From assembly GCA_965645245.1 (NCBI GenBank), contig OZ287068.1, forward strand, positions 124,001 to 188,000: a stretch of 64,000 nucleotides of DNA, written 5' to 3'. Made by a program: the position numbers and the translations under genes. The notes under the pieces are model-generated. The model saw only the letters and a program-made list of their open reading frames with translations. It ran no database searches and was not told the DNA's origin. Shown piece after piece: positions 13,630-46,450 of this stretch. Origin of the DNA: Massalongia carnosa (lineage: Eukaryota). Within the stretch, counting starts at the first letter, position 1; every line of letters begins with the position of its first letter.

Positions 13630-15621
13630 CTTTCTTCTTTGTTTTCGTCTTGTTTATTTAGCATAGCTATTAGCTAGCCATCAAGACCATCATCACCACT
13701 ACTTGAGTAGGCCTTCTATTGCCCACCCGTTACACTCGTCCGACGTCTTGTATAGCAAACCACCTCCTAGCTATAGCCTCATTAATAAAGACATCTTGAT
13801 CATCCAATCCAATTCCTAGGAACATTAGTTCAATTCCCAACCCAGTCCTTGACACGGCCGAAGGCCGGCCCATGCGGGCGAGTCTATCTAGTTTTATAGT
13901 ACATGGAAAACCTTTTGAGGAAGAAAAACCATGCAATCCTGTGTCCGGCCGAGGACCCTCCGGGTCCCAGCCGTGTGCTCCATGAAAAAACCTTTGACCT
14001 AAGACAAGTATGAAAAATAAAACAAAGCATGCCTACTGTTAGCAGTATAGATGCTGTGCTGTCAGCGAAAATTGTGACAACAAACCTGTCTTCATTAGCC
14101 ACTTTGTGACTAATTTCATTGCTTTAGATGACTCAGTGATTAATCGATAGTTGTTTGTGCCTATCGTATTTAGCAGAGTTTTTCTGTAGTCGTTGAGATT
14201 GCAAAACATGATCACATGTTTTGTAGTCTGTTTGTGCCAGCCACATGAGCAGTTCGGGGACGAGACGTCTGGGACTCGGTGTCTATGTAGGAAGGCGGCT
14301 AGGCCTATCTTTTCTGAGCGTATCTGAATGGCTAGCGCGCTCTCCGCTTTGGCTAGAGTTTCGTGCAATTTGATGCGTTTTTTGGAGAGTGAACCTGATT
14401 TTGCCGGGGTGGGAACGGGTGTGCGTTCCTGATATGATCTCCACGAGGCCTGCCATGCAAATGTGTGTAGTTTTTTTATTTGAGCAGTTATTTTGTTATG
14501 AGCGGCGCGTGCCTCCCCTATTTCTGGGGCAGGATTCGGGGGGGATTCGGCCCATGGTGGATTTGGTGTCGGTGTTGGAGGGTTATGTGCCTCCGATGTG
14601 ATTCTCTTGGCCCAGGCGTATTTCAGCGTTCCTGAAGTGATGACTGGGGCCCTCTTACGTCCTGCCCGACCTCGAAGTTTATTGGCTATTTTGTTGCATG
14701 CATTTGTGATGAAACTCTTTTGACCATTTTGACACAGGCGTTGTCTGGTCTGGGCCTGTAGTTGATCAAAATGTATGTCAATTGAGGCTATAAATGTCTC
14801 TGCTTTAAGTACAGCTATTGGCGTTGCTTTGAAGGCTCCGGCTATGTTTCTTAGACATTTGTTTTGTATGACAGCTAGTTTGTTTGAGATGACGTTTGAT
14901 TTTTGAATTTCTTTTGGCATGTGCCAAATGGTGGAGCCGTACGTCATGGCCGGCCGGACTACGGCGGTATAAACCTGGCGTGCCTTTAGAAAAGTGGCGC
15001 CCCATGTGGAGGTGGATATTTTTGTCAATGCCCTAGATTGTTTTGTCATTTTTTCCTGGATTTTCCTTGTGTGAGCACCCCATTTCAATTTTGAATCGAT
15101 TTGAAGTCCTAGAATTCTGATGTCTGTCTTTGGTTTTATGATTTTATTTCCTATTTGAATAACAGTGAACATGTTGAATTTCTTCGGATTTCTTGACAGA
15201 TGTATCAATTCGTATTTCTTCGGAGCGAAGACTGAACCATGTCGACTTGCCCATTTTTCACATTTTTTGTGAATTACCTCTAGCGTCTTGCAATTTTCTT
15301 CGGTGCTTTTTCCGTATGCTAGCACATTGATGTTATCTACGAAGCCTAGAGCACTCGTGTTGCTGCCTGGCCTTTCACATATGTCTAGTAGGTCTGCATT
15401 GTAGAATAGATAAAGAATAGGAGAAATGGGGGAGCCTTGTGGGATTCCGGTTTTTACATCGAATATGCCCGTGACTCGGCTGTGAATCGCCAGGGTAGTG
15501 CTTCTTTCATTCAGAAAACTGTTCACCCAGTCAGTGATCTATTTTGGGATTTTCCTTTTGCGAAGATTGTGAATCAGTCTTCGATGTGTCACTGTATCAT
15601 AGGCTCCTGCTACGTCCATGC

Positions 15622-16106
15622 TGTAATAGGGTAGGCCTAGTATGCGTTCGTTGTACGTAAGACTGGCCTATGTGGCTATGTGGGATACGTACAGCCAAAA
15701 CAACCACCAAGACAATAAGGTCCCGCCTAACCCAGTTAGGCATAGTGTGGGGACTTAACTTATTATAGAGGTGTTTTCGTAGTACACGAAGTATCCCCTC
15801 GTCTCGCCTCACCTCCCCTAGCTCACCTGCCTAGTCTTATCTACCCGTGTCTTTGGGTGTCCGAAGTATTTCGGAGTCCGAAAATACCAGGTAGTATGGG
15901 CAAGGTATGGAAGAAGAGCTTAGGTTATGGATTATCCTATCCTATATAGATCAATGATCAAGCACTTTAAAAGGGTAGCATTTAGTCTACCCTTTGACCC
16001 GACCCTACCTATTTTGTACCTCTATTGTGACCATCACGTTGTATAGCCTCTGTGGATCCCCTCTTCCAGTAGTGAATGCCTGCTGGGAGACGGTCTCCCC
16101 GTTTCA
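15622..16106. mobile_element. Solo LTR (485 bp) in LINE ORF2
   Basis: TG...CA ends. TSD catgc at 15617-15621 and 16107-16111. Removal rejoins LINE RT (LLSM-DVAGAYD). Confidence 0.92.
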
Positions 16107-17885
16107 CATGCTCAATAATGTGGCTACTTTGTCTGTGCCTTGGCCCCAAACTCTATAAATTTGTTTAGTCAACAATTCTAGTGCAGATTCGCTTGATCTT
16201 CCTCGTCTGGCGCCCATCTGGGTGTCGGGCAGGAGTCGGTGGGTTTCCGCTAGATGGGTTATTTTTTGTGACTTGATGGATTCCATTACTTTTCCAAGCG
16301 TGTTTAGGAGTGCTATGGGTCGATAGGCGTTCGGGGCCGAATAGTCATCCTTGCCTGTTTTCTTGAGCGTGATTGTGTTGGTGGTTTTAAATGCACGAGG
16401 ATGATATGCTTGTTCTACAGATGCTTGAAATAGTGGGGTGAGTAATTTGACTAGCTTTTCCGAGCATGCCTTTACATTTCTGTTGGCTATTCCGTCCGGA
16501 CCCGGGGCCGTATCGGGCTTGAGTCGGCGTATGGCTTTCATCACCTCTAGTTTGGTTATGATCATTGGACATTATGGCGGGCTGGGGTAAAATGAACCCT
16601 CTATGCCGCTGAGGTCGGCCGGAGGGGCGGGTAGAAAGAATTTCTGTTTTAGCATGTCCGATTTTTCCTCGAACGTCTCTGCTACTTGGTCGTCTCGAAC
16701 GAGATTGGGCATTTTGGGAATTTCTCTTGTCTGGTCACTTTTGTCTTTCGCCCATTTGGCTAGTCGCCAGAGACCAGTAGGCGATTCGGTGGCTTTTTCT
16801 ATTTCCTTGCGGAACGACAGTCTTTTAGCCTTTTGAATGATTTTTTGTTTTCTGTTATTGGATTTTGTGTATGTTATCCAATCAGAAATGTCTCTGGAAT
16901 TGGACCAGACACGTCTGAGCCTACGAGTTTCTTTCGTGATCACACTGCATTCATCTATTCCAAAAGGGTTTGGCGTACTTACTGGGTCAAGCCCAAGGTA
17001 CAGAGGTTTCTATCACTTCTTGAAGAAATTTTTGAATTGACACGGTGTAAGCATCGATTTCGGCGGGGGATCGGGGGGTCTTCGGGGGGGGCGCCGTCTT
17101 TTCCGCTTCTCTCAGTTTTCTCATGTTCGTCAGTTTCCAGGCCCTGCGTTCTCTGATTGTTTGAACCTCACTGTTCAGCGCAATTCGGGTGGAGATCGGA
17201 ATGTGATCGGACGACTGATTGAGTTCCGGTCTTGACATGCAATGTTCTAGTCTATCCATTAATTCCTCTGACATGAATACAAGATCGATTATGCTAGACG
17301 ATTGTCTAGCCTCCTATGTAATGGTGCCTTTTGGAAGTGTTAGTGATAGATTTGCCTCTTCAATTATGTTCAGTAATTGTTCCGACTCCGCATGTTGAGT
17401 AGGCCTCGACGAATGATTCCACAATGGATGATGTAGGTTGAAGTCGCCCAGTAAAATGTGTTTTGTCTCTGCAATTAATTGGCGTTTCACTGTTGCTAGC
17501 GTGGACGGACTGTCTATAGAAGAATAGGAAATGGGAGAGGGATTATACACATTGTGGACGTGGATTACGTCTGATGTGTTTCCAATTTTCATTCGAATTT
17601 TTAGGGTGCACATGTCGGCCGACGGATACTCTACTTCCCAGCTATCAGGGTCAATAGTATCATTTATGTAGAAACACACTCTGGTGTCTCCATTTGGGCG
17701 ATATAATAAATGAAACCCACTTTTATGAGAGCTTAACGTGGTAGGAATAGATGGATTGCGCCAGGGTTCCTGAATTGCGATAATGTCATAGTCTTGAGTG
17801 TTCGGATCAGCTAAGAGGGGTAACATTGTACTCACTTTTTCATTTCTGACATTGTACTGCAATATGGAGAGAGATTTCGTGTCCC

Positions 17886-19373
17886 TCATAGGACGTCCAT
17901 TGATTCGGCCTGGGAGGTCGAGGGGTCGTTGGTGGTGTTGTTTGCTCTGATTATCGCCGGGGCAGTAGATAAAGCTCGGGGTCTGAGTGGGGGTCTACCT
18001 ACAACTGGTTTTACAAGGGCCTTTGTCATGTTTTCTGGATTCATGATGCCCGTGTCAGCCCAGGATGTTCCCGTTCGTGGGGGATTCGGGGGGGTATCGG
18101 AGGGGGGTACGGTTTTCTTCTTTTTGCTGTTTGTGCTGCCAAGGACCGGGTTGATGTTTTTGCTCTGGAACCTGAACGGGGCCGGTACGGGGGCGACTAC
18201 TGGGTAGAATGGGACCCGTTTTTGCATGGCCCTCTCTGCTTTGCGTTTTTCGACTTTCCTGATTTCGCAGGATGTTGACCAGGCTTCGTGTCCCTTTTCA
18301 CTGCATGCAGCACATCTTCGATATCTACCTGTTGTTTCCATGTTGCATTCGTTGCTAGGGTGAGCCCCAGCACAGTGACCGCAGGCGGTGGGATTAGGAC
18401 ATGATCGACCTATATGACCATATTTGTGACAATTAAAACATTGCGTCATGGTGTATCCCTTTGTGAATCTTTCACAGTCTTTGATTTCATAGTCGATTAT
18501 GAGACCCTCGGCTATGACCCGATTGGCCGTTTCGGCGGTGGCGACTTCCATATGTAGCGTGGAGAACGCCTTCTTTTCCCTTATAGCCCTGGTGGACCAG
18601 GCTATTTTATTTATCTGCAGGTCCGGGTGCAGGCGTGCGTTAGCAGTCTGCAGGTACCCTATGGCCTGCGATTGGTTGGCGGTTTTGATGTGTTCCATCT
18701 TGACACAATTTACTCTGACCGAGTATGTCCGTGTCTTAATCGCCGCCGAGTCGGCTATTTTTCGGGTCCATTCCGTCTTTTCTTGTAGAGTCTTTTTGAC
18801 TTCTAGTGATTCCGTGTAAATTTTGAGATCTCCGCTTATGAGTCGCGAAACTCCCCGAATCCCCTCCGTTTCTGCTTGTAGTGTCTCCACGAGATCTTTT
18901 GTGGGCATGTTCTTTATTTTTTCCTTGTCGCTTGCGCTGGAAATGACTACGGTCATTGCTCTGGCCTGACGAACTTCTTGTGGTGAGGGTTCGGTTTGTT
19001 TTGAAGAAGTGATTGGCTTGGTGCGGCGGGGAATCGGGGGGGCCTCGGAGGCTTGACCTCTGGTGGCGGCTGCGGAATAGCTATTTGGGGTTGTTGTGGC
19101 TGTCTTAGCACTTTCGATACGGGCTAGACTTCTTTGTATTTCAGTCAGGGTGTCGTGAATGGGCTTCGGTATGTTTTCGTTGTTGTTGTCGATGCTTCTC
19201 TGATTATCGAGAAAAATTTTCACCTCCTCTAGAATCCCTGTTCCCTCCGGTTCCCCTCCGTCTCCTATACCTATCAGATAGTCATCTATCTTGTACAGCA
19301 GTTGATCTCTCTGCTCCGCGTGCGCGATCACGAACGTGTTTTCGAGTTGAATGTTCATCGCGTCCTCGATCAC
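17886..19373 (-). CDS. LINE ORF1 (gag-like, three zinc knuckles)
   Basis: CFNCHKYGHIGRSC, CGHCAGAHPSNEC, CAACSEKGHEAWSTSC. Open frame. Stop overlaps the ORF2 start (ATGA). Exact start codon uncertain. Confidence 0.88.
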   Translation of the reverse strand: MIEDAMNIQLENTFVIAHAEQRDQLLYKIDDYLIGIGDGGEPEGTGILEEVKIFLDNQRSIDNNNENIPKPIHDTLTEIQRSLARIESAKTATTTPNSYSAAATRGQASEAPPIPRRTKPITSSKQTEPSPQEVRQARAMTVVISSASDKEKIKNMPTKDLVETLQAETEGIRGVSRLISGDLKIYTESLEVKKTLQEKTEWTRKIADSAAIKTRTYSVRVNCVKMEHIKTANQSQAIGYLQTANARLHPDLQINKIAWSTRAIREKKAFSTLHMEVATAETANRVIAEGLIIDYEIKDCERFTKGYTMTQCFNCHKYGHIGRSCPNPTACGHCAGAHPSNECNMETTGRYRRCAACSEKGHEAWSTSCEIRKVEKRKAERAMQKRVPFYPVVAPVPAPFRFQSKNINPVLGSTNSKKKKTVPPSDTPPNPPRTGTSWADTGIMNPENMTKALVKPVVGRPPLRPRALSTAPAIIRANNTTNDPSTSQAESMDVL

Positions 19374-19569
19374 GATTGCGACAATGATTATGATGTAGCC
19401 GTCGATGATGATAGAACTAGGGAAATTCCTAGGAAATGGAAACTCTCGAGTAGTGAGCCCGTACCTGCCCGAAAGATTCTCTTCAAGTCTAGAATCTCAA
19501 GAATTACAATCAATCGTGCTATTATACCTACACGTGAATTTTACTTTTCATCAGACTGCTCATAATTCC

Positions 19570-20649: not shown

Positions 20650-23600
20650 TTATTTCTGAAAACTCCAGATGTCGGGAACTAACACTAGGAGATTCAAAAG
20701 AGCAAGAAGGTATAACGACAAAGAAAACGCATTTTGGAGGTCACCTGGGTGCCCACAGAGCCACTTGATAAAAAATATTGAAGGTCCAATTTGAGTCAAA
20801 AATAATGCAACCATCAGTTTCCAGAATGCCCATCCGGGTAAAGCATGCATGCCATATCCTAACACGCCATATCCCTCATCCAATCTGCCATTTATTTTTT
20901 TTGGTATGCGTCTAATAATATCTTCAATATCTTGAGGGCAGCAGCCGCCAGGATTGTGAAAGCTGTGCATTAAGCTCTTCTCTAGGGTTTTGATAAATTG
21001 TTCTCGAGGATCTTTGTATGAGTATGCATAATCGCTGTTCGTTTTTGAGCATGGTAAATCTTCTTTGCCACAAGCAATGAAATCTCCGCTACGATTTATC
21101 CGCTCAAACTGTGAGATATTAGGATTAAAGATTTAAATCAGGTGAGGTGACACCTTACAACAACAAATTTAACACCATAGCAGGCGGTTAGGGAAACCCA
21201 TCGTCGAAAGCCGCGAGTAGTGTCATATGCAGATTTGAGTTTGGGGACGAGGTTTACATCATAAGGAGCTAATATTGAGATATGATTGAGCATAGTCTCG
21301 TATCTCCTAACATCGACACACCAGTGAATATATTGATCAGAATGCAGAGAATGTTGTGCAGCACCGCTATTGTTACCTGGATTCAAGACAGTTGGAGACC
21401 TTTGGACCGTCCGACTTGAAGATAGTGTCGTGGTTTGAGTTTGAGTAGAAATACTAGAGGACGAGGCGATAAGTGAATTATTGTGTAGGGGGAGAATAGG
21501 CTGATTTGTTGAAGTCGATGCAGCGGATGAGCATATTTTCTGATACTCTTTCGCCACCTCATCAGGAATATCGACTGAGAGCTCGACTCCACAGGCCTGA
21601 ATATGAAAAAATCAGCTGGGCGAAATTCATGTCTAGAGCTGACAATTATCTGAAATATATCACACGGCTTTCAAAGTCTTTGTAATAGCTTCAACGAATC
21701 AACTTACACATGACCAAGATATCCTCGTAAAGCCATTTGGGCATCGGGCTCTCGTTGGTTGTAGTGGCCACCAAATGATTGGGTTTCGGATCCACTTCTC
21801 TATGATATTTTTAATCCGATCTAAAAATCCAGGATGGGTAGTCATTGTCCAAGGTGTAAATTTGACGACCCGATTGTTATCGGTGGCATAGCTAACCGTG
21901 GAAGCAGATATATTGCTAGGGACCTCATGATCTGGGTGCACAAACTGATCCAGGTGCTGTCGAAGACTATTGAAAGCGTTACTTTGAACCATAAACTGCT
22001 TGACTTCAGTGAAAGACGGGAGGCTGTTTGAAAAATCGTCTGCCGATTTATAACTGTCTGAACTTTGATCATTAACAACATCACTGTCGGAAGCTGTTTC
22101 TTTTGACAAATAACGGGCGTCAGATCTGTCCCTCGGAACAAGAGGACTTTTCATCTCCCTTGTTTTTTTGCTCCTAGCAGCAAAGCCGCTCAAATAACGA
22201 TCAAGCATCATGAGCTTCGCGGGCTCAGAACCGTGCATTTTCAACTGTTCAATGCGTTTTGAATATTCAATATCTTCTAACCGCTCAAGCAAGAGCGTCA
22301 TCACCTCTTTCCCATTCCCGAAATTTCCCGCCGCTGCCTTCACCACCTCTTCCGTAATCATCACATCTGCCCCGCGCTGCTCAAGCAAGAGCGTCATCAC
22401 CTCTTTCCCATTTTCCTCATTTCCCGCCGCTGCCTTCACCACCTCTTCCGTAATCATCACATCTGCCCCGCGCTGCTCAAGCAAGAGCGTCATCACCTCT
22501 TTCCCAAACATCCTTGCAATTGTCTTCACCACCTCTTCCGTAATCATCACATCTGCCCCGCGCTGCTCAAGTAAGAGCGTCATCACCTCTTTCCCATTTT
22601 CCTCATTTCCCGCCGCTGCCTTCACCACCTCTTCCGTAATCATCACATCTGCCCCGCGCTGCTCAAGCAAGAGCGTCATCACCTCTTTCCCATTTTCCTC
22701 ATTTCCCGCCGCTGCCTTCACCACCTCTTCCGTAATCATCACATCTGCCCCGCGCTGCTCAAGCAAGAGCGTCATCACCTCTTTCCCATTTTCCTCATTT
22801 CCCGCCGCTGCCTTCACCACCTCTTCCGTAATCATCACATCTGCCCCGCGCTGCTCAAGCAAGAGCGTCATCACCTCTTTCCCATTTTCCTCATTTCCCG
22901 CCGCTGCCTTCACCACCTCTTCCGTAATCATCACATCTGCCTCGCGCTGCTCAAGCAAGAGCATCATCACCTCTTTCCCAAACATCCTTGCAATTGTCTT
23001 CACCACCTCTTCCGTAATCATCACATCTGCCCCGCGCTGCTCAAGCAAGAGCGTCATCACCTCTTTCCCATTCCAGGAAATTCCCGCCGCTGCCTTCACC
23101 ACCTCTTCCGTAATCATCACATCTGCCCCGCGCTGCTCAAGCAAGAGCGTCATCACCTCTTTCCCATTCCAGGCATTTCCCGCCGCTGCCTTCACCACCT
23201 CTTCCGTAATCATCACATCTGCCCCGCGCTGCTCAAGCAAGAGCGTCATCACCTCTTTCCCATTCCAGGCATTTCCCGCCGCTGCCTTCACCACCTCTTC
23301 CGTAATCATCACATCTGCCCCGCGCTGCTCAAGCAAGAGCGTCATCACCTCTTTCCCATTCCCGAAATTTCTCGCCGCTGCCTTCACCACCTCTTCCGTA
23401 ATCATCACATCTGCCCCGCGCTGCTCAAGCAAGAGCGTCATCACCTCTTTCCCAAACATCCTTGCAATTGTCTTCACCACCTCTTCCGTAATCATCACAT
23501 CTGCCCCGCGCTGCTCAAGCAAGAGCGTCATCACCTCTTTCCCATTTTCCTCATTTCCCGCCGCTGCCTTCACCACCTCTTCCGTAATCATCACATCTGC

Positions 23601-26600
23601 CCCGCGCTGCTCAAGCAAGAGCGTCATCACCTCTTTCCCATTTTCCTCATTTCCCGCCGCTGCCTTCACCACCTCTTCCGTAATCATCACATCTGCCCCG
23701 CGCTGCTCAAGCAAGAGCGTCATCACCTCTTTCCCCTTCCAGGAATTTCCCGCCCCTGCCTTCACCACCTCTTCTGATATTATCGTAAGCTTATTTTTCA
23801 GCAAGATCGAAACTACATCACAACTACCATATTTAACAGCAATTTCCAAAGGTGTCCGACTCTGAGTGTTCACTATGTTGTCTCCGAAATTTGCCCGGAT
23901 TCTAGCAATTTCCTGCAAATCAAAACAGGAGGCAACAAAGAGAGCTCTGCCCTCTTTAGCGCTAGTGTCTTTAAATTTATCCCTTAGTTCACTTTCAATC
24001 GAGTAATCGTAAAGCCGTTCCTTAATCAGGCTAGCCCATACAGCAATAGCGGATCCTGAGTCCGATTCGTTGGAGAGAAAATGACAAAGGAGGTCGTTAA
24101 GCACATCGGCAGTCCTTTGTTTAGCAGCTAGCTGACTATGCGGAGCCCAGTAGACATTCGAGTAGTGTCTAAGGTCATGTGAAAGAGTTGAGTATAATGA
24201 ATCTTGTCCGTATTTAGAAAGAAGTCTTTTTGTTGTTGGGTTGTCGGCAGCACTTAGTACGTCTAAGAGACATGTCTCAGCAGCCAGGGCGTTTGTCGCT
24301 TCTCTAGTATATTCTGGCCGCTTCTCCAAAAATTCTCTCACCGACAGATGGGCAAATCGAAACGTATCGAGTGTTGAATCGAAAACAACCATGTTAGAGC
24401 ACATCTCCAAAATATGCTCTTTCGTCAGCTGGCTGAACTGTCGCCGTGGGGTCGTTGAAATTGCCGCGAGAAATTCTCTAGATGTCAGCTTTCTCTGGGT
24501 GCAGAGGAGCCAGCTGAAAGCCTTGATAGTCACTTCGCGATCGGCGTTTGCTGAGGTTTTGGTCAACTTCTCGTATAGCTCAAGATAAAGGTCTTCCAGC
24601 TTTGGTGGCAGTTGCCCGAGCCTTTCCCGAATAGCTTCATCAGTCCGAGCGCTGCATAAGCTTTGCAGTTGGAGGCTAGCCCACCGGAACCTGGTGATCA
24701 CATTAGTGGGGCATAAACATGGCTCGCATTGCTGGACAGTACTGACATTCCATCAGCGTTTTTTATGACCTGTTCAATAATCTCTATCTTCAACTTCTCC
24801 TTGTTGGTGCTTAAAGCTAGTAGCTTCTTCCTCTTGATAAGGTTGTAGGTCTCAGCGGTAATAAACGACGAGATATCATCCTTGTTCATTTCAGATGAGA
24901 GCTCAAGATTAGGGTAGTCTCGCAAATACAAAACAATATCTTGATCATCTCGACTCGACACAAAGATCTTCACCAAGCTTGAGGACTCTTGAAGAATTGA
25001 TTCTAAGGTTTCCAAAAGAACTGTCCGTCTCTCTGGGTCGCACTCGTCAAGCGCATCGATCACAATGGTTGTTAATGGATAATACTCGGCAAGCTGGAGG
25101 ATTAGTAGACGACTCTCACCTATACCTAATGATTCCGAGGCGAATCCCTCCATCTCTCGTTTCTTGTAGGCTGCCACCGTTGGAGGGAGTAGAGGGTGTC
25201 CCGGCTGAAGACTAGACAATTGCCGTGCGATAGTGGCTACGATTGCATCAGGGTTTGAACGCGCAGGTTCAGCGGTGTTTCGTGAACAGTAGAAAAAGAC
25301 TGGAGCTGGGCTTTGGCCATTATCGAAGGCTTTTTTGGCATCTTCAATCACAATAGATCTATGTTAACCGTAAGCATTTATCTTTCCGAGATAGCTGTAC
25401 AGTACTCACACCAGCTTGCTCTTCCCAGAACCTGGAATCCCATGAAGCCACAAGATAGAAGATACACTTTCTTTCTTCCACCTGTTGAAAACTGGATCCG
25501 AAAGCAGCCATTGTCCAGTACCCTGTAACACTTCTTCCTTGGTCTGATTATGATGTTGCCTATATGGTTCGGGGGACATCCAGTCTAGAATCTTATTTCT
25601 CTTTGATACTAAGGCTCATGAGTTGAGGCTCTGATGTTGATTTTAACAACTTACACTCAAAACCATCTTTAATTTTTACTAAATCCGCACTCATTCGTTT
25701 TGTTGGGCCATCGATATACTCGAGAAGTTTTTTCAAGTCCATGCGTTGATTTATTTGTTCTAGGTTCATTAGTAAAGAATTCAGAAAATAGAAGTCCTAT
25801 CGAGCAAGCTTACCTTGCATTCCAACCACACAGGAACAACGATCAACGGTCTCTTGAGCGGTAGCAATGGCACCAAAGAATGACTCAATGTCTGACTTTG
25901 CCAGAAGTCCGCTCTTCAATCTAGGCACTGTAAATGCCATCAATATATATTCTGTTATTGAAATGCCAAACTAACTTGTGGAGTCCTGTTCAAAGTAGCT
26001 CTTCACCTTCGATAAATAGATCATAATCGCTGCATAAAACCTAACTAGAGCTCTCCGAAGTTCATCAGCAGTAGCAGCGAATGGGTACTGCAGGTAGACG
26101 TCCTCGAATACAGCATATCGACAAATGATTTCCCCAATCGAAGCCCCACTTTCGACCACGAAAGCGAATTTATCGGAATCATTGACGGCAATCTATAGAG
26201 GTTTTAGTAATATCTTTCGCTATTTTCAACATCACAAACCTGCAGGAGAAATCGAATACCAGCCCAAGGAAGCGCAGCATGAACCGGATCATACTGAACA
26301 GCAATTTCCCCGACTTGCTTAAAAAGATCAATCCACTTGACGATCTTGCCAAATAGGTCCACGAAGATGACCGTCTCTCCGCTCGTTCTCGTGTATCGCC
26401 ATTTTTTCTTGATACACTCTTGCTTTGCCTTCTTGGTAACTTGGTGTAGATCAGACAAGATGTCAAGCTTGTTGGAGCGGTCAAAGTCTATGTTTTTTTG
26501 GTCTTCCTTACTCATCTCAGCCTTCGCACTTGCCCAAAGGTCATTTCTTCAGCAAAGGCGCAAAGTCAGCAGAGCCTTGTCGCAAACGAGGGTTAGGTGT

Positions 26601-26638: not shown

Positions 26639-27475
26639 ACGTATGCCGGTCGTACAAACTTACTAGAGATAACTAGTTGTCAAAAGCACCAAGTGAGAAA
26701 GAAAGCGTTGACTTGAGTTTGATATATGATAACGCGGCGCAAGTTCAGCTGAGATGCTTCGATAAGGCAGATAACACAGTCTGGGAAGTCAATCAATCGA
26801 CTTATGATTACGGAAACTTCGAAGTCTTGATGAACTGGAAGTATATTCCCCAAACTCGGCCCAGTATTGCGATGGAGCACAAGGAGGAGATAGACAAGCT
26901 TCTACACCGGCTTCTTGGGAAGGCAGCAAATTGATGATAGCAAACTCTTGTCATCTGAAGTAAGGGTAATGTTTTGGCTAAACTTTCCACAGATCGATTG
27001 TGGGTTAATTATATTTCCTATTCTTGAAAATGAAAGGATCCTGCCAAATTTAGCATGTAAAGGAACACGTAGCTTTGAGAATGGTTGTCACATTAGTCTT
27101 TCGCTAGTTGAAAGTCGCTAATAGTTACTTCGAGATTTGGGTGAGTGTCGACTGCTTAAAAGTATAAATTATGAGTAATCGTGCCAAAACACTAAACCCC
27201 AACCGAGTCTAGACCCTGACTCGGCACGATTATTTTACCTTATCCGTGCCGTGCCCCACACTTTCGCCTGGGCACGGATACATGATTAAACATGGTAAAT
27301 CTTTTTAGTTCTATCAATGACGTAGATTACGAAGTACCCAACACCACAACAAAGACTATAGACTGCTTAGAACATATATCAGCTTCTGAATCTTCGGTAT
27401 CATGTCATTAAATCGAACTGAATCTGATGCAATACATAGATTGCTTGAATATTCTCAAGATCATCTAGATCGCGT

Positions 27476-27547
27476 GGCCTGCTGGGTCAGAAACCTCTAC
27501 GTGGTGCAGGCTATCAACACCTCCTCGGAGGTGGCCAATATCTGATC
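27476..27547 (+). ncRNA. HDV-like self-cleaving ribozyme (predicted fold)
   Basis: P1 GGCCUGC/GCAGGCU (27476-82/27506-12) with G1-U wobble. P2 GGUCAGA/UCUGAUC (27485-91/27541-47). P3 ACC/GGU. L3 UCUACGU. P4 CACCUC-CUCG-GAGGUG. J4/2 G-C-C-A-A with candidate catalytic C27535. Confidence 0.85.
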
Positions 27548-27632
27548 ATCGCCAACGCGGAAGTCCACATCGGTGGCCATTTGAACGATCAACGTCTCTA
27601 CTGATTATTCGTCACCTCGAAGGCACACATAC

Positions 27633-27778
27633 AAAGCCCATTCGTTCGGAATGGCCACACCCCTCAGGCGGAAGCCTTTCACCTCATCGAAAAAGCCCAT
27701 TCATTCGGAATGGCCACACCCCTCAGGCGGAAGCCTTTCACCACATCGAAAAAGCCCATTCATTTAGAATGGCCACAC
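27633..27778 (+). repeat. 2.5 copies of a 59-bp unit inside the retroelement
   Basis: aaagcccattc starts at 27633, 27692 and 27751. Confidence 0.95.
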
Positions 27779-29720
27779 TTACACACCTTCATTTATACGA
27801 CACCACGATCTGCCCTCGATCACGGCCAGTCTTTCCTCCATTGAATCAAAACGTTTAAAGAGAGAGAACGTTCGTCGAACGTGTGAAAATACACTGTCTA
27901 GTTCATCGAGTCTATAGGATTCCTAGCGCTTGAAGATCTGGGTTTACGCACCGCGTGGTAGAAGGACGGTCTCGTTGCGTTCAACATGGAACAAGGGAGT
28001 GGTTTTACCCTGGGGGCCAGGTTTCTACTTCCTGACTGTTGTTTATGTACATAAATAGCAGTCACAGCGTCATATCCTTAGGATGCATACGCTTAATGAA
28101 TTAATAAAAAAAAAATCTAGATCGCGTTTATAAAGGTGCAGATGAGCTCCGCGTCAGAATTATTGGAGGGAGAAGTGATCACCTTGGTGCATGATACGAA
28201 TATTTGGAAGGGATAATGTCGATTATTATCTATCGTGGGTGTTTATGAACTCCCACTGGCTAATCTACGCTAATCCTATTCCGGTTAAGCAGTCACCAGT
28301 TGCCCGACCTTGTCCGTTAGGCTAACACTTTAGCATAACACCAACAAGAATTGAAGCTCGGGGGGTCCTTAATCTACTTGGTATTCCTGTGAATCAGACT
28401 CTTATGAGTAGTCTTAACCACTTCGGTAATGTGTGTCTTTTCAATAAGTTCGTATTGCGAGATATGCGCTTGATCCGTAGACTGCGAAAAATCTTGTGGT
28501 TGTGAGCTCTTTCTCTTTATTATGTTGTTCTTTTTCAAAGTCTTCAGTCTCATTAAGTTCTCCTTAGCTGATGTCAAACTCAACGTATTTGAGTCGCTGG
28601 AAAGAAGCTTCCAGTCATGAGTGAACACATCAACAGGTCCAGGAAAAATATTGATCAAGAACTTCAAGCCATCGTCAAGCCTAAGCAGCCATGTATCAAT
28701 GGCCTCTTTGTTACGTTCAATGCTGATGACATCTTGAATACTTTTAGCAATAATAAGGGAAGTAGATGAGTTATGCAACGTCATAGAGTCATCGTTCGTG
28801 TGTAGAATGAATTGTCAATGCAAGGCATTGATCCAGCAATCGCCTTCTCGAGCATCATCATGCTTGAGTTTCACATAGTTCCGATTCCAGCATCAATTTC
28901 AAATACAGTGGAGGGTGTTTTCTGTGGCTGCCAGCATACTAGTATCAAGTATACGTCATCTAGGCCGGAGGGAAACCTTTCGCAATATGAGTTGCCGGGT
29001 TGCACGGTCTGCTCGTTTCCATGTCTCCGTTATTTTCAGCTGTTGTACTACGGATAGCATATCAAACGTCCATTTTAAGATCAGCCACGTTTTAGTACTG
29101 TACTTGCCGGTATCGGGAAGTTATTAAAATGCGGGTAGCCAATAATGTCCACCAACTATACAGAGGGCTGACCGATCGATGCCGTATGATGCTGCAAGGA
29201 GGCTTTATCAACAATGGGAGACGGTGGAAAGGGAATCCAATGAAGGGTACTGCTCCATAAACGCTAATTCACGATCGGAATGACGAGGATATGTTGGAGC
29301 CGATGGAGCGTTGAAAATATTGCTAAAGACGCACAACTATAAGGAAATGCATTCAGTCCCATGAGTTAGCCACTGGATACAGTATCTCCACAGTACTTAA
29401 TTGCGTCGTAATGCCTCATCCGAAGAGATACCCCGCACCCGCACCCAGCCCCTACGACACGACAATATATCTGCTACACCATCATGAGGGACAAGAATGC
29501 GCCACGAGGCAAAGTCTTCAATTTCAAGCCCAGGACAGAATGGAGACCTGAAGTTGCTCAGCAGGTGCACTTGTCATCGCAATATCGATCTCATATGGTG
29601 GTTGTCTTGGGCAAAGCATTAACGAGACCGCCCGGTTGAGCTTGTACACATTTCGCTACGCTTTAGTTGATAGCTAGAAAGAGACCTTCCTTCACGCAGA
29701 CATCGTGCTGCGTGTCTTAA

Positions 29721-40533: not shown

Positions 40534-40719
40534 TCGTCTTTAAAAACTTTCGCACTTTTTAGCTAGTACTAGAAGTTGCATTCGTTACCCATACAAGCCC
40601 TCAATAGTCATTGTGATCACGTAGAATTGCTCCCCGACTCTATAGCTATCTTGGCCGAAAGTTATATCGTCCCTTCTGTTGTGGCTGCATTGTGGCAACC
40701 ATGGGGAGCTCTTTTGTCG

Positions 40720-43700
40720 TGGCAATGCGTGTGGCAAGGAGGGCCACGGGGCAAGCGCAGAGTCTTGCCCGGAGCGAAAGAAGGAAAAGGCCCGAATGAA
40801 GCGGGCTAAAGAAGAAGCCCTCCCCTTCTGGCCTCTCAGGGCCTCCTCAAGGGAGACCCTAAATGGTCAGGAACAAGAACGGAGCAGTCCGCCGGCATCG
40901 ACCACGCCGACGGTCACGACAAGCAGTGAGGTGACCCCAGCCTCAACCCAGGTGGAACAGGGCCCTCGAACGGGCTCTGTACGGGAGGAAGATTGGCAAA
41001 CCGTGCCAACTCTCCGCAAGGGGAAGAAGCGGGCGCATGGGGAGGTAGAGCCCCGGGCAGACAACCCCAGCTCTACCAACAGGAGCATGGCACAAGCAGC
41101 TTCTAAGAAGGGAAAGAAGAAACCCTCCTCGAAGGCTGTAGAGGGCTTGAGTGATAAGGAGAACGACGATAGTTCTTCAATGACCACCAGATCGGCAACC
41201 CGTCGCTTGCAGCCCAGTACTCAGACAGAAGAGGAACTATGAGTGAATACACCCACTATCTGTCCATACTTCAGTACAACTGCAACGAATCCAAGAACAC
41301 TGTCATGGCGGACTTCCTTCGCAGGGAGGAAACCATGTAATACGGCATCCTGGCCATCCAGGAACCCTGGGCGGGGAACCCCTATCAACACACCACGCAC
41401 AATCCGGTCAAAAATGTTTTTCACCTTCTCTATCCCCCCGAAACAGGAGAAGAAGAGCTCCCTCCGAGAGTATGCATGTTCGTCAACAAAGACATAGCAG
41501 GCGCCTCTCGGAAGGTAACCTTCCACTCTCCCGATCTGATGACTTTCCACTTGGAATTTCCTGGCGAAACCCAGCGAGTCATCAATATCCATAACATCTA
41601 CAATCCCTCCCCCTCTCAGGGAAACTACAGCACCTTGCCAGACCTAAGCAAGGCGCTAGAGGTGGAGGGAGAGCACATAGTGGTAGGGGACTTCAATCTT
41701 CACCATCCCCTATGGACTGGCGAAGACTACCATCATCAACATCCGGAGGCAGACCAACTACTGGAGATTCTCGATCAAAGCGAGCTAGAACTTCTGCTCC
41801 CCCCTGGCACCATAACATACGATCATAGATCAGCACAGAGCACTATAGACTTAACGTTCGCAACCCCCGCAGTGGCTTCAGCCGTACTCATGTGCGATGT
41901 GAGAAGAGAGTTAAATAGTGACTCAGATCATTACCCCATTGGCACAGCATTCGATATCACCACAGTTAAGAGGGCCATAAGGTCCTCTCGCGTGTGGTCT
42001 AAGATTGATAGGAAAAAGCTACTGTCAAATTATAGGATAACTAATCCTAAACATCAGTGGTAACTCAGGATGATATATCCGAAGGGTTATTCCGGCCCGA
42101 CTAGACACGTGGCCTCCCCCCTTAGATAGATTCCCACTTTTCCACATCCTCCACAATACAATCAACATCTACCCAATTCCCTGATTATGCCTTTTGACCC
42201 TTATATATTTAACAGCTACTAGACACGCTGACAGACAAGCTCCCGGCACCTAGGAGCGTGAGCACAGTTCAAGAACTCGACAACTTGGCCCATGAGTTAG
42301 TTGAAGCTATCCAGCACGCAGTGGAGACAGCAGTCGCACTTTCCAGAGGGTGCAATCATTCAAAACCTGGCTTTACCCCGGAATGCAAAGAGGCAGTCAC
42401 CCTATGCAGACGTCTCAGGCGCAAGCATAAGGAAACGCGCTCTCTGGAAGACTGGGAAGCCTACCGAGAGGCGAGAAACAGCGAAAAGAAAATCGTACAA
42501 AAAGCTCTCAAGACAACACATAGGGACAGGGTAGAGGAGGCCACCAGCACTCCAGATAGTCTCTAGAAGCTTGCGAAATGGGCTAAGAACAGGTCGACCC
42601 CATTCCAAGCCTTCATCCCAACCCTAATGAAAAGCGATGGCTCCAAAGTGACGGAGGCCTCGGGCAAAGCTGAACTGCTTCGCAGACAGTTTTTTCCTAT
42701 CCCGGACGCCACCAATCTTGAAGACATCGCCGATTATCACTATCCAGAGCCAATCCAATTTGCTCCCATCTCAGCTCGGGAAATAACTAAAGCCATCACA
42801 AAGGCAGCACCACTCTCGGCCCCAGGCCCCGACGGACTGCCTAATAGAATCCTCAGAGATATGTTACCGCTCATCATGCCCACACTTGTAGCTCTGCATA
42901 ACGCCAGCTGGGAACTGGGTCATCACCCCAATGCTTTAAGAGAATCCACCACGGTGGTTCTCAGAAAACCAGCTAAGGCCGACTACAGTTTGCCGAATTC
43001 ATACAAACCCATAGCCTTGCTCAACACTTTAGGTAAGACTATGGAGAAGATCATTGCAACCAGAATCAATCACGCGGTGGAGACCGAGAGCCTACTCCCC
43101 AGCCTCCATATAGGCGGCAGGCGAGCTAGATCACCCGAACACGCCCTCCATCTGCTCCTAGAGGCCATCCACGCAGCCTGGCTTAACAACGAAGTGGCCA
43201 CAGTGCTCATGCTGGACATCTCGGGTGCTTACGATAACGTATCCCACAAAAGACTACTGCACAACCTACGGAAGAGAAGAATAGGCGGCAACATAGCTAA
43301 ATGGATCGAAAGCTTCCTTCAGGAAAGGAAAACGACCATCGCCATGCCCGACTACACCTCGCAACCATTCACCACGAACTTTGGAGTCCCTCAGAGATCC
43401 CCTATATCTCCTATTCTTTATCTCTTCTACAACGCCGACCTTATGGAAGAGGAAGGGCCCAAAAAGATGAATTGGGCTATGTCGATGACATATCCAAACT
43501 AATTATTGGAACTTCAGCAGAAAAGAACTGTAGAAATCTCGAAGCCTCGTTCATGACGAGGGAGCAGAAATGGGCGGACACACACGCCTCCAAATTTGCC
43601 CCCGCCAAATTCCAGCTCTTGCACTTAATTAAAGAACCCTTAGAGACGGATTTGAACCCCCCGGAGAGAGCTATCTCCCTAGCGGACAAAACCATCAAGC

Positions 43701-45653: not shown

Positions 45654-46450
45654 TACCACCATTTCTTTAGTCAAGATAAACTTGATTTTTATCTTCCCAA
45701 TTCAACTACCTCCCTGATCCAGTGCCATTCGATCTCAATGTGCTTGGTGCGACGGTGAAACTCCGGGTTTTCAGCCAGCGCAACCGACCCTTGATTGTCC
45801 CCTCGGAGTAGGACTAGGGTGCCTTTCGTCCAGTATCCCAGCTCTGTCAGAAATCGCGCGCACCAAATGGCCTCTTTAGCCGCTTCCGTCATGGACATAT
45901 ATTCGGCATCGCAGGTGGATAGGGCGACGGTGGGTTGTAGCTTGGAACAATGAGAAATCGGGGCGCCTGCTAACAAGAATGTATAGGCCCCTGTTGATCT
46001 TCTCCCATCTTTCGTTCTAGCATAGTCGGAGTCCGAGTACCCTATAATGTCATCCTCCATGTCTCTTCTGAACACGAAGCCATCATTCAAGGTACTGGAG
46101 ATATTTGCAGTGGAGTGGGACCGGGTTCGAACAATATCGACTCAGTGCTCCCAATGCATAAGCGATGTCGGGGCGTGTATGCATGGCTGGCCACATCAGC
46201 GAGCCCTACCACCGACTAGTAACAGGTAATTGTTTTCTTGTTGGCCTGGTCTTCCGACGGCATGAGTGTGTTTCCGGCACCGGGGTCCATGGGGGTGGAT
46301 ATAGGCCTGCAGTCGAGCACACCGATCGAAGATTGCTCCGCTATCCCACGACGTAATTCTTTGACAGATTACATTCTCGATCATGTCTTGAGGTCACCAT
46401 AGATAAGCCGAATGACGCTCGCAAACGTCGAATCATCCTCCTTGAACTTG
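45654..46450 (-). pseudogene. Copia RT/RNase H fragment
   Basis: GYSDSDYA...RRSTGAY...VALSTCDAEY...RTKHIE. Upstream YQSVVGSLMW...TRPDIAY. No LTR seen. Confidence 0.85.

What the first reader, a model, noticed from the sequence alone, without database searches (positions are those of the whole stretch)
27476..28114. Ribozyme-headed non-autonomous retroelement: an HDV-like ribozyme starts exactly at the 5' insertion junction
Seen: a 639-bp non-coding insert with a 13-bp TSD and poly(A) tail. Its first 72 nt fold into the HDV double-pseudoknot order: 7-bp P1 with G1-U, 7-bp P2, 3-bp P3, L3 UCUACGU keeping the U20, C21, C24 and G25 equivalents, P4 hairpin, and J4/2 GCCAA with candidate catalytic C27535. 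The predicted cleavage site (5' of G27476) coincides with the TSD boundary. P1.1 is reduced to one pair (U27498-A27513). Established: HDV-like ribozymes process 5' ends of R2, RTE and L1Tc retrotransposon RNAs, and the CPEB3 ribozyme has a one-pair P1.1. Inference: this is a SINE-like family that releases itself from read-through transcripts by self-cleavage, rather than using a tRNA-derived Pol III head, and borrows a LINE RT. I cannot tell whether this family has been described.
Basis: partly seen in the sequence, partly recalled or inferred. Interest (0 to 1): 0.92.

Follow-up and report, generated by a model that had tools for sequence, protein, structure and literature searches.

The report
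Self-cutting ribozyme heads a fungal retroposon
A short, non-coding, highly repeated jumping element, probably from a lichen fungus, begins exactly at the cut site of a hepatitis-delta-type self-cleaving RNA; this design is already known from trypanosome and fruit-fly elements but seems unreported in fungi.

Summary
Window 27476-28114 is a 639-bp non-coding insert. It has an exact 13-bp target-site duplication and an A10 tail.

Its first 72 nt contain every element of an HDV-like ribozyme: P1 7 bp with G1·U37, P2 7 bp, P3 3 bp, L3 UCUACGU, a P4 hairpin, and J4/2 GCCAA with C27535. Two Rfam HDV models align over their full length but score below threshold: 26 bits against a cut-off of 44, and 24.9 against 50. 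A structure descriptor finds only this site in the window and none in 200 shuffles.

Contigs of public runs show a young family with very many copies. Differing flanks start at 27475/27476 in three differently labelled organisms. No listed variable site falls in the first 88 nt.

The most likely mechanism is self-cleavage of upstream-initiated transcripts to set the 5' end, followed by copying by a LINE. Cleavage, transcription and the LINE partner are all untested.

The kind is known: NARTc/L1Tc in trypanosomes and R2 SIDEs in Drosophila. I rate this a new member of a known kind, possibly the first link between fungal HDV-like ribozymes and retroelements.

The parts
27463..27475 (+). Left copy of the 13-bp target-site duplication (ATCTAGATCGCGT)
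   Evidence: Read directly. Identical to 28115-28127.
27476..27547 (+). HDV-like self-cleaving ribozyme. The predicted cut is 5' of G27476. The predicted catalytic C is 27535.
   Evidence: cmscan aligns it over the full length of RF02682 (26 bits) and RF00094 (24.9 bits). Helices verified. It is the only descriptor hit in the window, against 0 in 200 shuffles. Nested MFE folds recover P1+P4 or P2+P3+P4.
27476..27482 (+). P1 5' strand, pairs with 27506-27512 (7 bp, G27476·U27512 at the cleavage site)
27485..27491 (+). P2 5' strand, pairs with 27541-27547 (7 bp, one G·U). Forms the pseudoknot with P1.
27493..27505 (+). P3 (ACC/GGU) enclosing L3 UCUACGU. U27498 pairs with A27513, the single P1.1 pair.
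   Evidence: L3 plus P3 is identical to the RF02682 consensus aCCUCUaCGUGGu.
27518..27533 (+). P4 hairpin (6 bp, CUCG loop)
27534..27538 (+). J4/2 GCCAA with the candidate catalytic cytosine C27535
   Evidence: Aligned to GGCUAA / GGCuAA of the two Rfam HDV models
27633..27778 (+). Internal 59-bp tandem repeat, 2.5 units. The number of units differs between copies: the X5 copy lacks 27633-27691.
   Evidence: table 8, record 7
27548..28105 (+). Non-coding body of the element. The central part is variable or replaced in subfamilies.
   Evidence: No ORF with a start codon. Joints that skip or replace 27595-27799 and similar stretches in X1 contigs (table 5).
28106..28114 (+). Poly(A) tail. The A-run extends to 28115, which is shared with the duplication.
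   Evidence: Tails of other copies differ in length, and the X5 copy adds TAATAATAA (table 7).
28115..28127 (+). Right copy of the 13-bp target-site duplication

Best explanation
27476-28114 is one copy of a young, highly repeated, non-coding retroposon family. It has a poly(A) tail and a target-site duplication. The host is a eukaryote, most likely a lichen-forming ascomycete. Its first 72 nt encode an HDV-like self-cleaving ribozyme.

Proposed mechanism:
1. A copy is transcribed from upstream, either by read-through from a neighbouring promoter or from an upstream tandem copy (inferred).
2. The ribozyme folds during transcription and cuts 5' of G27476. This discards all upstream RNA and leaves a 5'-OH RNA that begins with the ribozyme itself (inferred from the fold, not assayed).
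3. The polyadenylated RNA is copied into a new site by the endonuclease and reverse transcriptase of an autonomous LINE through target-primed reverse transcription. This gives the 11-13-bp duplications and the A-rich tails (the structure is shown; the partner is unknown).
4. Reverse transcription runs to the cleaved 5' end, so every full-length copy starts at the same base and carries the ribozyme on to the next cycle (the uniform start is shown).

The element works like NARTc and the R2 SIDEs.
For: Shown by tools:
- Exact 13-bp duplication and A10 tail. No coding capacity and no Pol III-type head.
- Complete HDV-like core aligned end to end to RF02682 and RF00094. The P2 pseudoknot, which those models do not score, is 7 bp. 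It is the only descriptor hit in 128 kb of strand, against 0 in 200 shuffles.
- Family: 2150 contig pieces of run X1 were laid on the stretch. Of these, 906 are 99% or more alike and 705 are 95-99% alike. Summed depth is about 3e5-1.2e6 inside the element and about 3e3-4e3 in the left flank.
- Uniform 5' end: loose ends with low-agreement, hence different, flanks lie 'before' 27475/27476 in X1 (6+13), X5 (1) and X8 (3), and 'behind' 28114/28115 in X1 (4+13) and X5 (1) (table 7; 116 more rows not shown).
- The full X5 copy has its own flank repeat...TTCACAATAGA on both sides.
- Depth at the 5' end is about the same as at the 3' end (table 2).
- The head is conserved. Of 38 listed variant rows inside the element (36 places), 0 lie in 27476-27563. 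Rough chance of that is about 0.005, but 49 rows are not shown (table 3).
- The window copy differs from nearly all contigs at 27569, 27606, 27644, 27944, 27947 and 28026, and at no listed place in the head.
- The class is real. A pattern fixing only L3/P3, AUCAAC and GGCCAA found 12 metagenome loci. In 10 of them the unspecified P1 and P2 positions pair, with unrelated sequences in 4 independent lineages. The other 2 (L006, L011) look like chance matches in GC-rich coding-like sequence. Of the 7 loci I gave to cmscan (5 of the 10 pairing loci plus L006 and L011), the 5 pairing loci scored 32-44 bits on RF02682, again below its cut-off, and L006 and L011 scored nothing.

From papers:
- A ribozyme with a single-pair P1.1 is active in L1Tc, and NARTc constructs cleave at +1 (PMC3185411, passages).
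- SIDEs need only a 5' ribozyme and a 3' end that an autonomous element's machinery can bind (PMC3414825, passages).
Against: - No cleavage assay exists, and no RNA run was available.
- Both Rfam scores are below the gathering thresholds, and the whole-window E-value is 1.1.
- P1.1 has one Watson-Crick pair.
- I wrote the descriptor after seeing the site.
- The metagenome loci were fished with a pattern taken from this sequence. Their shared L3, J1/4 and J4/2 are therefore by construction; only their P1, P2 and P4 pairing is independent.
- Covariation among copies of this family itself could not be measured. The contig tables list only the best-supported differences.
- No autonomous partner was found. 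The two APE+RT LINE relics in the window share no sequence with the element, and one ends in (CAAT)n rather than poly(A).
- A uniform 5' end would also result from a fixed transcription start.
- In this particular copy, U27475 and G27474 could extend P1 onto A27513/U27514 and compete with P1.1. PMC3185411 reports this effect for L1Tc. So this copy may cut poorly even if the family is active.
- Summed contig depth is not a copy number, as the tool itself warns.
Confidence: 0.72

Rival explanations
1. Same element and same ribozyme, but different origin and class. It is a short internally deleted derivative (a SIDE or NARTc-type element) of an autonomous, ribozyme-headed LINE in the same genome. 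It is not a free-standing SINE-like family that merely borrows a LINE. This reading is nested within the best explanation and differs only on ancestry.
For: Both documented precedents arose this way. [quoted passage not shown] SIDEs keep the R2 ribozyme plus an R2 or R1 3' end (PMC3414825, passages). X1 contigs show subfamilies with the centre skipped or replaced while the head and tail are kept (tables 5, 5c, 8).
Against: No LINE with this head or tail was seen. The two LINE relics in the window have no similarity to the element and no HDV-like hit. No listed contig runs from the head into a long ORF, but only a small part of the contig table is shown. The element has no recognisable remnant of a coding frame.
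Confidence: 0.4
2. The uniform 5' end comes from a fixed transcription start driven by an internal promoter in the conserved first ~90 nt. The HDV-like fold is then inactive, or secondary to that promoter function.
For: A conserved head and identical starts are what an internal promoter would also give. In L1Tc the same 77 nt act as both promoter and ribozyme (PMC3383444, abstract in the search listing; PMC3185411, passages).
Against: No A/B box, tRNA, 5S or 7SL similarity. A transcript starting at G27476 would give the ribozyme nothing to cut, yet all catalytic-core positions and four helices are intact in what appears to be the family consensus. The two functions do not exclude each other.
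Confidence: 0.12
3. Chance resemblance: the first 72 nt merely look like an HDV-like ribozyme.
For: Rfam scores are below the gathering thresholds, and E=1.1 at whole-window scale. The nested fold of the 72-mer is only modestly better than shuffles (z=-1.7).
Against: Several independent coincidences would be needed. Both models align over their full length. An unscored 7-bp P2 sits at the right place. There are 0 descriptor hits in 200 shuffles. The fold starts exactly at the duplication boundary and at the common start of copies in three runs. The head shows no listed variation.
Confidence: 0.03

Closest known systems
NARTc / L1Tc with the L1TcRz ribozyme (Pr77) of Trypanosoma cruzi, and the related RIME and SIDER elements
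   Same: A non-autonomous, poly(A)-type non-LTR retroposon whose first ~77 nt are an HDV-like ribozyme cutting at +1. The ribozyme has a P1.1 of a single base pair and is still active. Copies are dispersed and sometimes tandem. The ribozyme is thought to free the element from longer transcripts (PMC3185411, passages; PMC4035085, abstract; PMC3383444, abstract in the listing).
   Different: The host differs: a kinetoplastid with polycistronic transcription, against a probable ascomycete here. NARTc shares its head with a known autonomous partner, L1Tc; no partner was found here. Pr77 is also a proven internal promoter; that is untested here. I did not compare the sequences.
[quoted passage not shown]
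   Same: Short non-coding elements made of a 5' HDV-like ribozyme plus a 3' end that an autonomous element's machinery recognises. They are not transcribed by Pol III. They have 14-bp duplications in the R1-type hybrids. The ribozyme was shown to self-cleave (PMC3414825, passages). The L3 region of R2 seen in their primers (CCUCCUCGUGG) is close to CCUCUACGUGG here.
   Different: SIDEs are site-specific in 28S rDNA, are co-transcribed by Pol I, are rare, and lack a poly(A) tail requirement. This family is dispersed in differing flanks, is poly(A)-tailed and is very abundant.
Variant HDV ribozymes of fungi (Li & Breaker 2017, PMC5640933)
   Same: HDV-class ribozymes in Pezizomycotina: 230 examples in 26 species, and two were shown to cleave. 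They have an extra nucleotide between P2 and P3, which this ribozyme also has (A27492) (section 7 and the Table S1 row read).
   Different: The fungal variants typically have C-G at the cleavage site and an E-loop in P4. Here the pair is G·U and P4 is a plain hairpin. That paper reports 'widely variable gene associations' and never uses the word retrotransposon (0 occurrences). Its alignments (.sto supplements) could not be read here, so overlap with this family is untested.
Rfam RF02682 (HDV ribozyme of Faecalibacterium prausnitzii) and the phage theta ribozymes
   Same: This is the best-scoring Rfam model. P3/L3 is identical (aCCUCUaCGUGGu) and J4/2 is similar (GGCUAA against GGCCAA).
   Different: Those are bacterial or phage ribozymes upstream of glmM or fused to tRNA 3' ends (PMC6765202, passage; PMC10879173, abstract), not retroelement heads. 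They have a two-pair P1.1 (AGG against AU here). The score here is 26 bits against a cut-off of 44.
Hammerhead-bearing SINE-like elements of Schistosoma, and retrozymes
   Same: Non-autonomous retroelements that carry a small self-cleaving ribozyme to trim their own transcripts (PMC6765202, passages).
   Different: The ribozyme class differs. The schistosome SINEs are Pol III-transcribed, and retrozymes go through circular RNAs. None of that is indicated here.

Membership tests
HDV-like self-cleaving ribozymes | Nested double pseudoknot in the order P1-P2-P3-L3-P3'-P1'-J1/4-P4-J4/2-P2' | tested here: met
   P1 7 bp, P2 7 bp, P3 3 bp, P4 6 bp. cmscan aligns it over the full length of both models. 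Only hit of the descriptor.
HDV-like self-cleaving ribozymes | Catalytic cytosine in J4/2 (the C75 equivalent) and conserved L3 nucleotides (the U, C, C-G equivalents) | tested here: met
   C27535 aligns to the C of GGCUAA / GGCuAA. L3 UCUACGU equals the RF02682 consensus. The HDV numbering is recalled.
HDV-like self-cleaving ribozymes | G·U (or R-Y) pair at the base of P1 next to the cleavage site | tested here: met
   G27476·U27512
HDV-like self-cleaving ribozymes | Two-base-pair P1.1 | tested here: not met
   Only U27498-A27513 pairs; C27497 faces U27514. A single-pair P1.1 is documented in the active L1TcRz (PMC3185411, passages), so this is not disqualifying.
HDV-like self-cleaving ribozymes | Score at or above the Rfam gathering threshold | tested here: not met
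   26.0 against 44 (RF02682) and 24.9 against 50 (RF00094). Five other well-paired metagenome ribozymes also stay below the cut-off at 32-44 bits.
HDV-like self-cleaving ribozymes | Mg2+-dependent self-scission giving a 2',3'-cyclic phosphate and a 5'-OH | not testable with these tools
   Needs a bench assay
Fungal variant HDV ribozymes (Li & Breaker 2017) | C-G pair at the cleavage site | tested here: not met
   The pair here is G·U. Feature list from PMC5640933, section 7.
Fungal variant HDV ribozymes (Li & Breaker 2017) | P4 partly replaced by an E-loop | tested here: not met
   P4 is an uninterrupted 6-bp hairpin
Fungal variant HDV ribozymes (Li & Breaker 2017) | Extra nucleotide between P2 and P3 | tested here: met
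   A27492 (most commonly C in the paper). The same layout occurs in loci L007 and the L002 group.
LINE-dependent non-autonomous retroposon (SINE-like / SIDE) | Target-site duplication and A-rich 3' tail | tested here: met
   13-bp duplication and A10. The second copy, in X5, has its own flank repeat.
LINE-dependent non-autonomous retroposon (SINE-like / SIDE) | Many dispersed copies with unrelated flanks; no coding capacity | tested here: met
   2150 contig pieces in X1, with loose ends of low agreement at both boundaries. No ORF with a start codon.
LINE-dependent non-autonomous retroposon (SINE-like / SIDE) | 3' end (or head) shared with an autonomous LINE of the same genome | tested here: inconclusive
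   There is no similarity to the two LINE relics in the window. The genome is not held, so the rest could not be searched.
Canonical SINE | Pol III head derived from tRNA, 5S or 7SL RNA | tested here: not met
   No such Rfam hit at E<=10 and no ARAGORN hit. It should therefore not be filed as a canonical SINE.

The most novel reading that the evidence does not exclude
This is the first retroelement family of fungi shown to be headed by an HDV-like ribozyme. It is a free-standing, Pol III-independent, SINE-like class with no LINE-derived head, amplified very recently to several hundred copies, and shared at about 95-99% identity by several differently labelled lichen-associated organisms. By extension, many of the 'orphan' HDV-type ribozymes reported in Pezizomycotina with 'widely variable gene associations' would be retroposon heads rather than gene regulators.
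Probability: 0.3. Interest if true: 0.6.

Novelty: new member of a known kind. Interest (0 to 1): 0.45.

Why it matters
Until now, ribozyme-defined 5' ends of non-LTR retroelements have been documented in animals and trypanosomatids. If this holds, it extends them to fungi.

The family is abundant and apparently recent. Head, tail, target sites and (once the genome is searched) the LINE partner can all be read from many copies.

It also suggests a simple explanation for the fungal HDV-type ribozymes that were published without a biological context: they may be retroposon heads.

In practice, TE annotation pipelines for fungal and lichen genomes classify SINEs by Pol III heads and would miss or mislabel such a family.

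It does not change the general picture of how these ribozymes serve retroelements.

Tried and rejected
**Searches that gave nothing**
- The window's own genome is not held, so there was no genome-wide BLAST and no covariation analysis over copies.
- A plasmid collection search found no match; that collection is not relevant to a eukaryote.
- Earlier findings of this scan hold nothing for this genome or this sequence.
- An exact 27-mer from the ribozyme gave 0 matches in metagenome contigs and 0 in genome contigs.
- No RNA holder was listed among the sequencing runs, so nothing can be said about expression.

**Alignment that failed**
- The MAFFT alignment A1 of 11 ribozymes misaligned the 3' halves because P4 lengths differ. 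I did not use the count of structure pairs or a covariance model on it. I parsed the helices by script instead.
- I did not build a covariance model from the metagenome loci, because they were fished with a pattern taken from this very sequence.

**LINE partner**
- LINE relic A lies at about 13.9-19.5 kb on the minus strand, and LINE relic B at about 40.6-45.65 kb on the plus strand. Both carry APE and RT domains.
- Neither shares sequence with the element. They share only 59 bp with each other.
- B ends in (CAAT)n.
- Neither has an HDV-like hit.

**Readings rejected**
- Canonical Pol III SINE.
- Chance resemblance (see rivals).

**Organism**
- I wanted to check the organism through the ESM Atlas, but both calls failed.
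- 'Lichen-forming ascomycete' rests only on the run labels and on the domains of a neighbouring ORF: NACHT-like, ankyrin, GPIID_WHD and DUF7104. It is an inference. A lichen alga is not strictly excluded.

**Papers**
- PMC3256349 and PMC3159031 (reviews and searches from the Lupták laboratory) are not held.
- The Ruminski 2011 paper was not found in the library. What I say about RTE and Baggins ribozymes comes from the review PMC6765202.
- 'Not in print for fungi or lichens' rests on the searches only.
- Repbase and Dfam could not be consulted.
- The .sto supplements of PMC5640933 could not be read.
Full report
**1. What is there**

The stretch 27476-28114 is bounded by an exact 13-bp direct repeat, ATCTAGATCGCGT, at 27463-27475 and 28115-28127. 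It ends in an A-run at 28106-28115, whose last A could belong to either the tail or the repeat.

The stretch does not code. The longest stop-to-stop frame is 129 aa and has no methionine. ARAGORN finds no tRNA. Rfam finds no tRNA, 5S or 7SL similarity, either at gathering scores or at E<=10. Inside lies a 59-bp tandem repeat of 2.5 units at 27633-27778.

The surrounding 64 kb is rich in transposable elements:
- Ty3/Gypsy and Ty1/Copia polyproteins
- two DDE transposase fragments
- two degenerate LINEs with APE and RT domains
- one NACHT-like/ankyrin/DUF7104 ORF

There is no other copy of the element in the window.

**2. The ribozyme**

The first 72 nt hold every element of the HDV fold, in the right order:

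| Element | Coordinates | Detail |
|---|---|---|
| P1 | 27476-82 / 27506-12 | 7 bp, G·U at the cleavage site |
| P2 | 27485-91 / 27541-47 | 7 bp, one G·U |
| P3 | 27493-95 / 27503-05 | 3 bp |
| L3 | 27496-27502 | UCUACGU |
| J1/4 | 27513-17 | AUCAA |
| P4 | 27518-33 | 6 bp, CUCG loop |
| J4/2 | 27534-38 | GCCAA |

- cmscan aligns the site end to end with RF02682 (26.0 bits) and RF00094 (24.9 bits). C27535 falls on the conserved C of J4/2, and P3/L3 is identical to the RF02682 consensus.
- Both scores are below the gathering cut-offs of 44 and 50. The E-value is 0.0043 for the 251-nt search but 1.1 for the whole window. The covariance models alone therefore do not settle the matter.
- Three further points do:
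  1. P2 is a pseudoknot that these models do not score, yet it is 7 bp and sits where it should.
  2. A generic descriptor, which I admittedly wrote after seeing the site, hits only 27476-27546 in both strands of the window and nothing in 200 dinucleotide shuffles.
  3. The fold begins at the first base after the duplication.
- Nested MFE folds recover P1+P4 for the 72-mer and P2+P3+P4 when flanks are added. That is what a pseudoknot should give.
- An extra A27492 separates P2 from P3, and UA (27539-40) precedes the 3' strand of P2.

**3. The class, seen in independent sequences**

A scan of metagenome contigs used a pattern that fixed only L3/P3, AUCAAC and GGCCAA. It gave 12 loci.

- In 10 of the 12, the unspecified positions form a 7-bp P1 and a 6-7-bp P2. 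One of these, L010, has two P1 mismatches. The stem sequences are unrelated in four lineages: L001, L003, L007 and the L002 group.
- The other two, L006 and L011, are GC-rich and coding-like, and have no pairing.
- I gave 7 of the 12 loci to cmscan: L001, L003, L007, L002 and L009, which pair, plus L006 and L011. The five pairing loci score 32-44 bits on RF02682, again below its cut-off. L006 and L011 score nothing.
- L007 and the L002 group share the window's layout: one extra nucleotide before P3 and two before the 3' strand of P2.
- The shared core of these loci is by construction. Only the stem pairing is independent evidence, and it supports the class rather than this copy's activity.

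**4. The family**

No genome is held, so I used public runs. Sixteen rows hold part of the element, from 11 studies. They carry several organism labels, including 'lichen metagenome'.

I laid four runs at 80% likeness.

- **Abundance and age.** X1 gave 2150 contig pieces: 906 at 99% or more, 705 at 95-99%, 426 at 90-95% and 113 below 90%. Summed depth is about 3e5-1.2e6 within the element, against about 3e3-4e3 in the left flank, with single contigs near 830. The tool warns that this is not a copy number. I read it only as 'hundreds of copies, many very young'.
- **5' boundary.** Loose ends with low-agreement consensus, meaning different flanks, lie 'before' 27476 (13) and 27475 (6) in X1, 'before' 27476 in X5 (1) and in X8 (3). 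The share at 27475 is what a one-base chance match would give.
- **3' boundary.** Loose ends lie 'behind' 28115 (13) and 28114 (4) in X1, and 'behind' 28114 in X5 (1).
- **A second full copy.** A 7-kb X5 contig holds a full copy that lacks one 59-bp unit. It has its own flank repeat and a tail extended by TAATAATAA.
- **Truncation.** Depth near the 5' end is about the same as near the 3' end, so most copies are full length. A few truncated or rearranged copies exist (X8 at 27993, 28055 and 28065; X9 at 27586).
- **Tandem copy.** One X1 contig joins 28105 back to 27476, a head-to-tail pair.
- **Conservation of the head.** Of the 40 listed rows of differing letters, 2 are in the flank and 38 (36 places) are in the element. 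None lies in 27476-27563. By length about 5 would be expected, so the rough chance is about 0.005. However, 49 rows are not shown.
- **One decayed copy.** A low-depth X8 contig has insertions at 27515, 27533 and 27535.
- **This copy.** The window copy departs from nearly all contigs at six places downstream, and at no listed place in the head. Its ribozyme, including the one-pair P1.1, therefore looks like the family consensus.

**5. Mechanism**

*Shown:* retroposon anatomy, a repeated family, a uniform start at the predicted cut, and an intact ribozyme core.

*Inferred:*
- Transcription enters from upstream.
- The ribozyme cuts 5' of G27476.
- The polyadenylated 5'-OH RNA is copied by a LINE's endonuclease and reverse transcriptase, which runs to the cleaved end.

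HDV-like ribozymes need no specific upstream sequence (established knowledge), which suits an element that lands in random flanks.

One point is specific to this copy. U27475 and G27474 can extend P1 onto A27513/U27514 and so compete with the single P1.1 pair. The L1Tc paper reports reduced cleavage from this effect (PMC3185411, passages).

The partner LINE is unknown. The two LINE relics in the window share nothing with the element, and one ends in (CAAT)n.

**6. Comparison with what is known**

- HDV-like ribozymes at the 5' ends of R2, L1Tc, RTE and Baggins elements are established (review PMC6765202, passages).
- Two non-autonomous, ribozyme-headed elements are documented:
  - NARTc shares the 77-nt head with L1Tc and cleaves at +1 in vitro. 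Its ribozyme has a single-pair P1.1 (PMC3185411, passages).
- The review also says that some non-autonomous SINEs of metazoans use hammerhead or HDV-like ribozymes (PMC6765202).
- HDV-class ribozymes are known in fungi: 230 variants in 26 species, plus 11 canonical ones. They were reported with 'widely variable gene associations', and the paper does not mention retrotransposons (PMC5640933, section 7 and Table S1 row; 0 occurrences of the word).
- This ribozyme shares only one of that variant's three hallmarks, the extra nucleotide between P2 and P3.
- My searches found no paper linking HDV-like ribozymes to fungal or lichen retroelements. Repbase and Dfam, and the .sto alignments of PMC5640933, could not be checked.

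**7. Verdict**

This is a new member of a known kind: it works like NARTc and the SIDEs. Membership in a particular LINE lineage is untested, and it is not a canonical Pol III SINE.

Interest is moderate. The points that carry it are the fungal host, the very high and recent copy number, and the hint that fungal 'orphan' HDV ribozymes may be retroposon heads.

Noticed in passing
L002:463-541(-), L004:422-500(+), L005:1483-1561(+), L008:1493-1570(-), L009:869-947(-), L010:155-233(-), L012:352-430(-): Seven AT-rich, eukaryote-like metagenome contigs carry a complete HDV-like ribozyme that starts directly after a genomically encoded A10-12 run. Unlike the window element, the ~90 nt upstream of the A-run are homologous in all seven. 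In L009 the upstream region holds an intron-containing ORF with a Myb/SANT-like domain. Cleavage would leave an upstream RNA ending in an encoded poly(A). P1 covaries among the loci: CCUGAAC/GUUCAGG, CCCGAAC/GUUCGGG, UCUGAAU/GUUCAGA.
   Followed up: partly
L001:267-411(-) and L003:1493-1639(-): In two metagenome contigs the HDV-like ribozyme starts at or within two bases of the 3' end of a tRNA gene, inside tRNA arrays; L003 alone shows at least 10 tRNA hits. This matches the published tRNA-associated theta ribozymes of phages (PMC10879173, abstract read), so it is already known.
   Followed up: partly
window 40646-45654 (+) and about 13900-19500 (-): Two degenerate LINEs with APE endonuclease and RT domains, from different families (only 59 bp are alike). 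The plus-strand one ends in a (CAAT)6 tail at 45630-45654, preceded by a GGGCC-UUCG-GGCCC hairpin. The minus-strand one has a similar GGCC-UUCG-GGCC hairpin near its 3' end.
   Followed up: partly
window 21699-25363 (-): An NLR-like ORF: NPHP3_N (NACHT-type N-terminus), GPIID_WHD, ankyrin repeats, and 16 tandem DUF7104 units of 31 aa with a very strong repeat score (748 bits). It has a strong negative GC skew at 22-24 kb.
   Followed up: no
window 27633-27778: Each 59-bp unit inside the element contains two short hairpins (CCAUUC-N4-GAAUGG and AGGC-GGA-GCCU). The unit number differs between copies: the X5 copy has one unit fewer. The function is unknown; it may be a protein-binding array.
   Followed up: no
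window 27410, 27420 and 28161-28214: The flanks of this insertion are themselves represented by more than one contig in run X1. There are variant letters at 27410 and 27420, and depth rises again from 28160 with loose ends at 28161 and 28176. The element therefore probably sits inside or next to another repeat.
   Followed up: no
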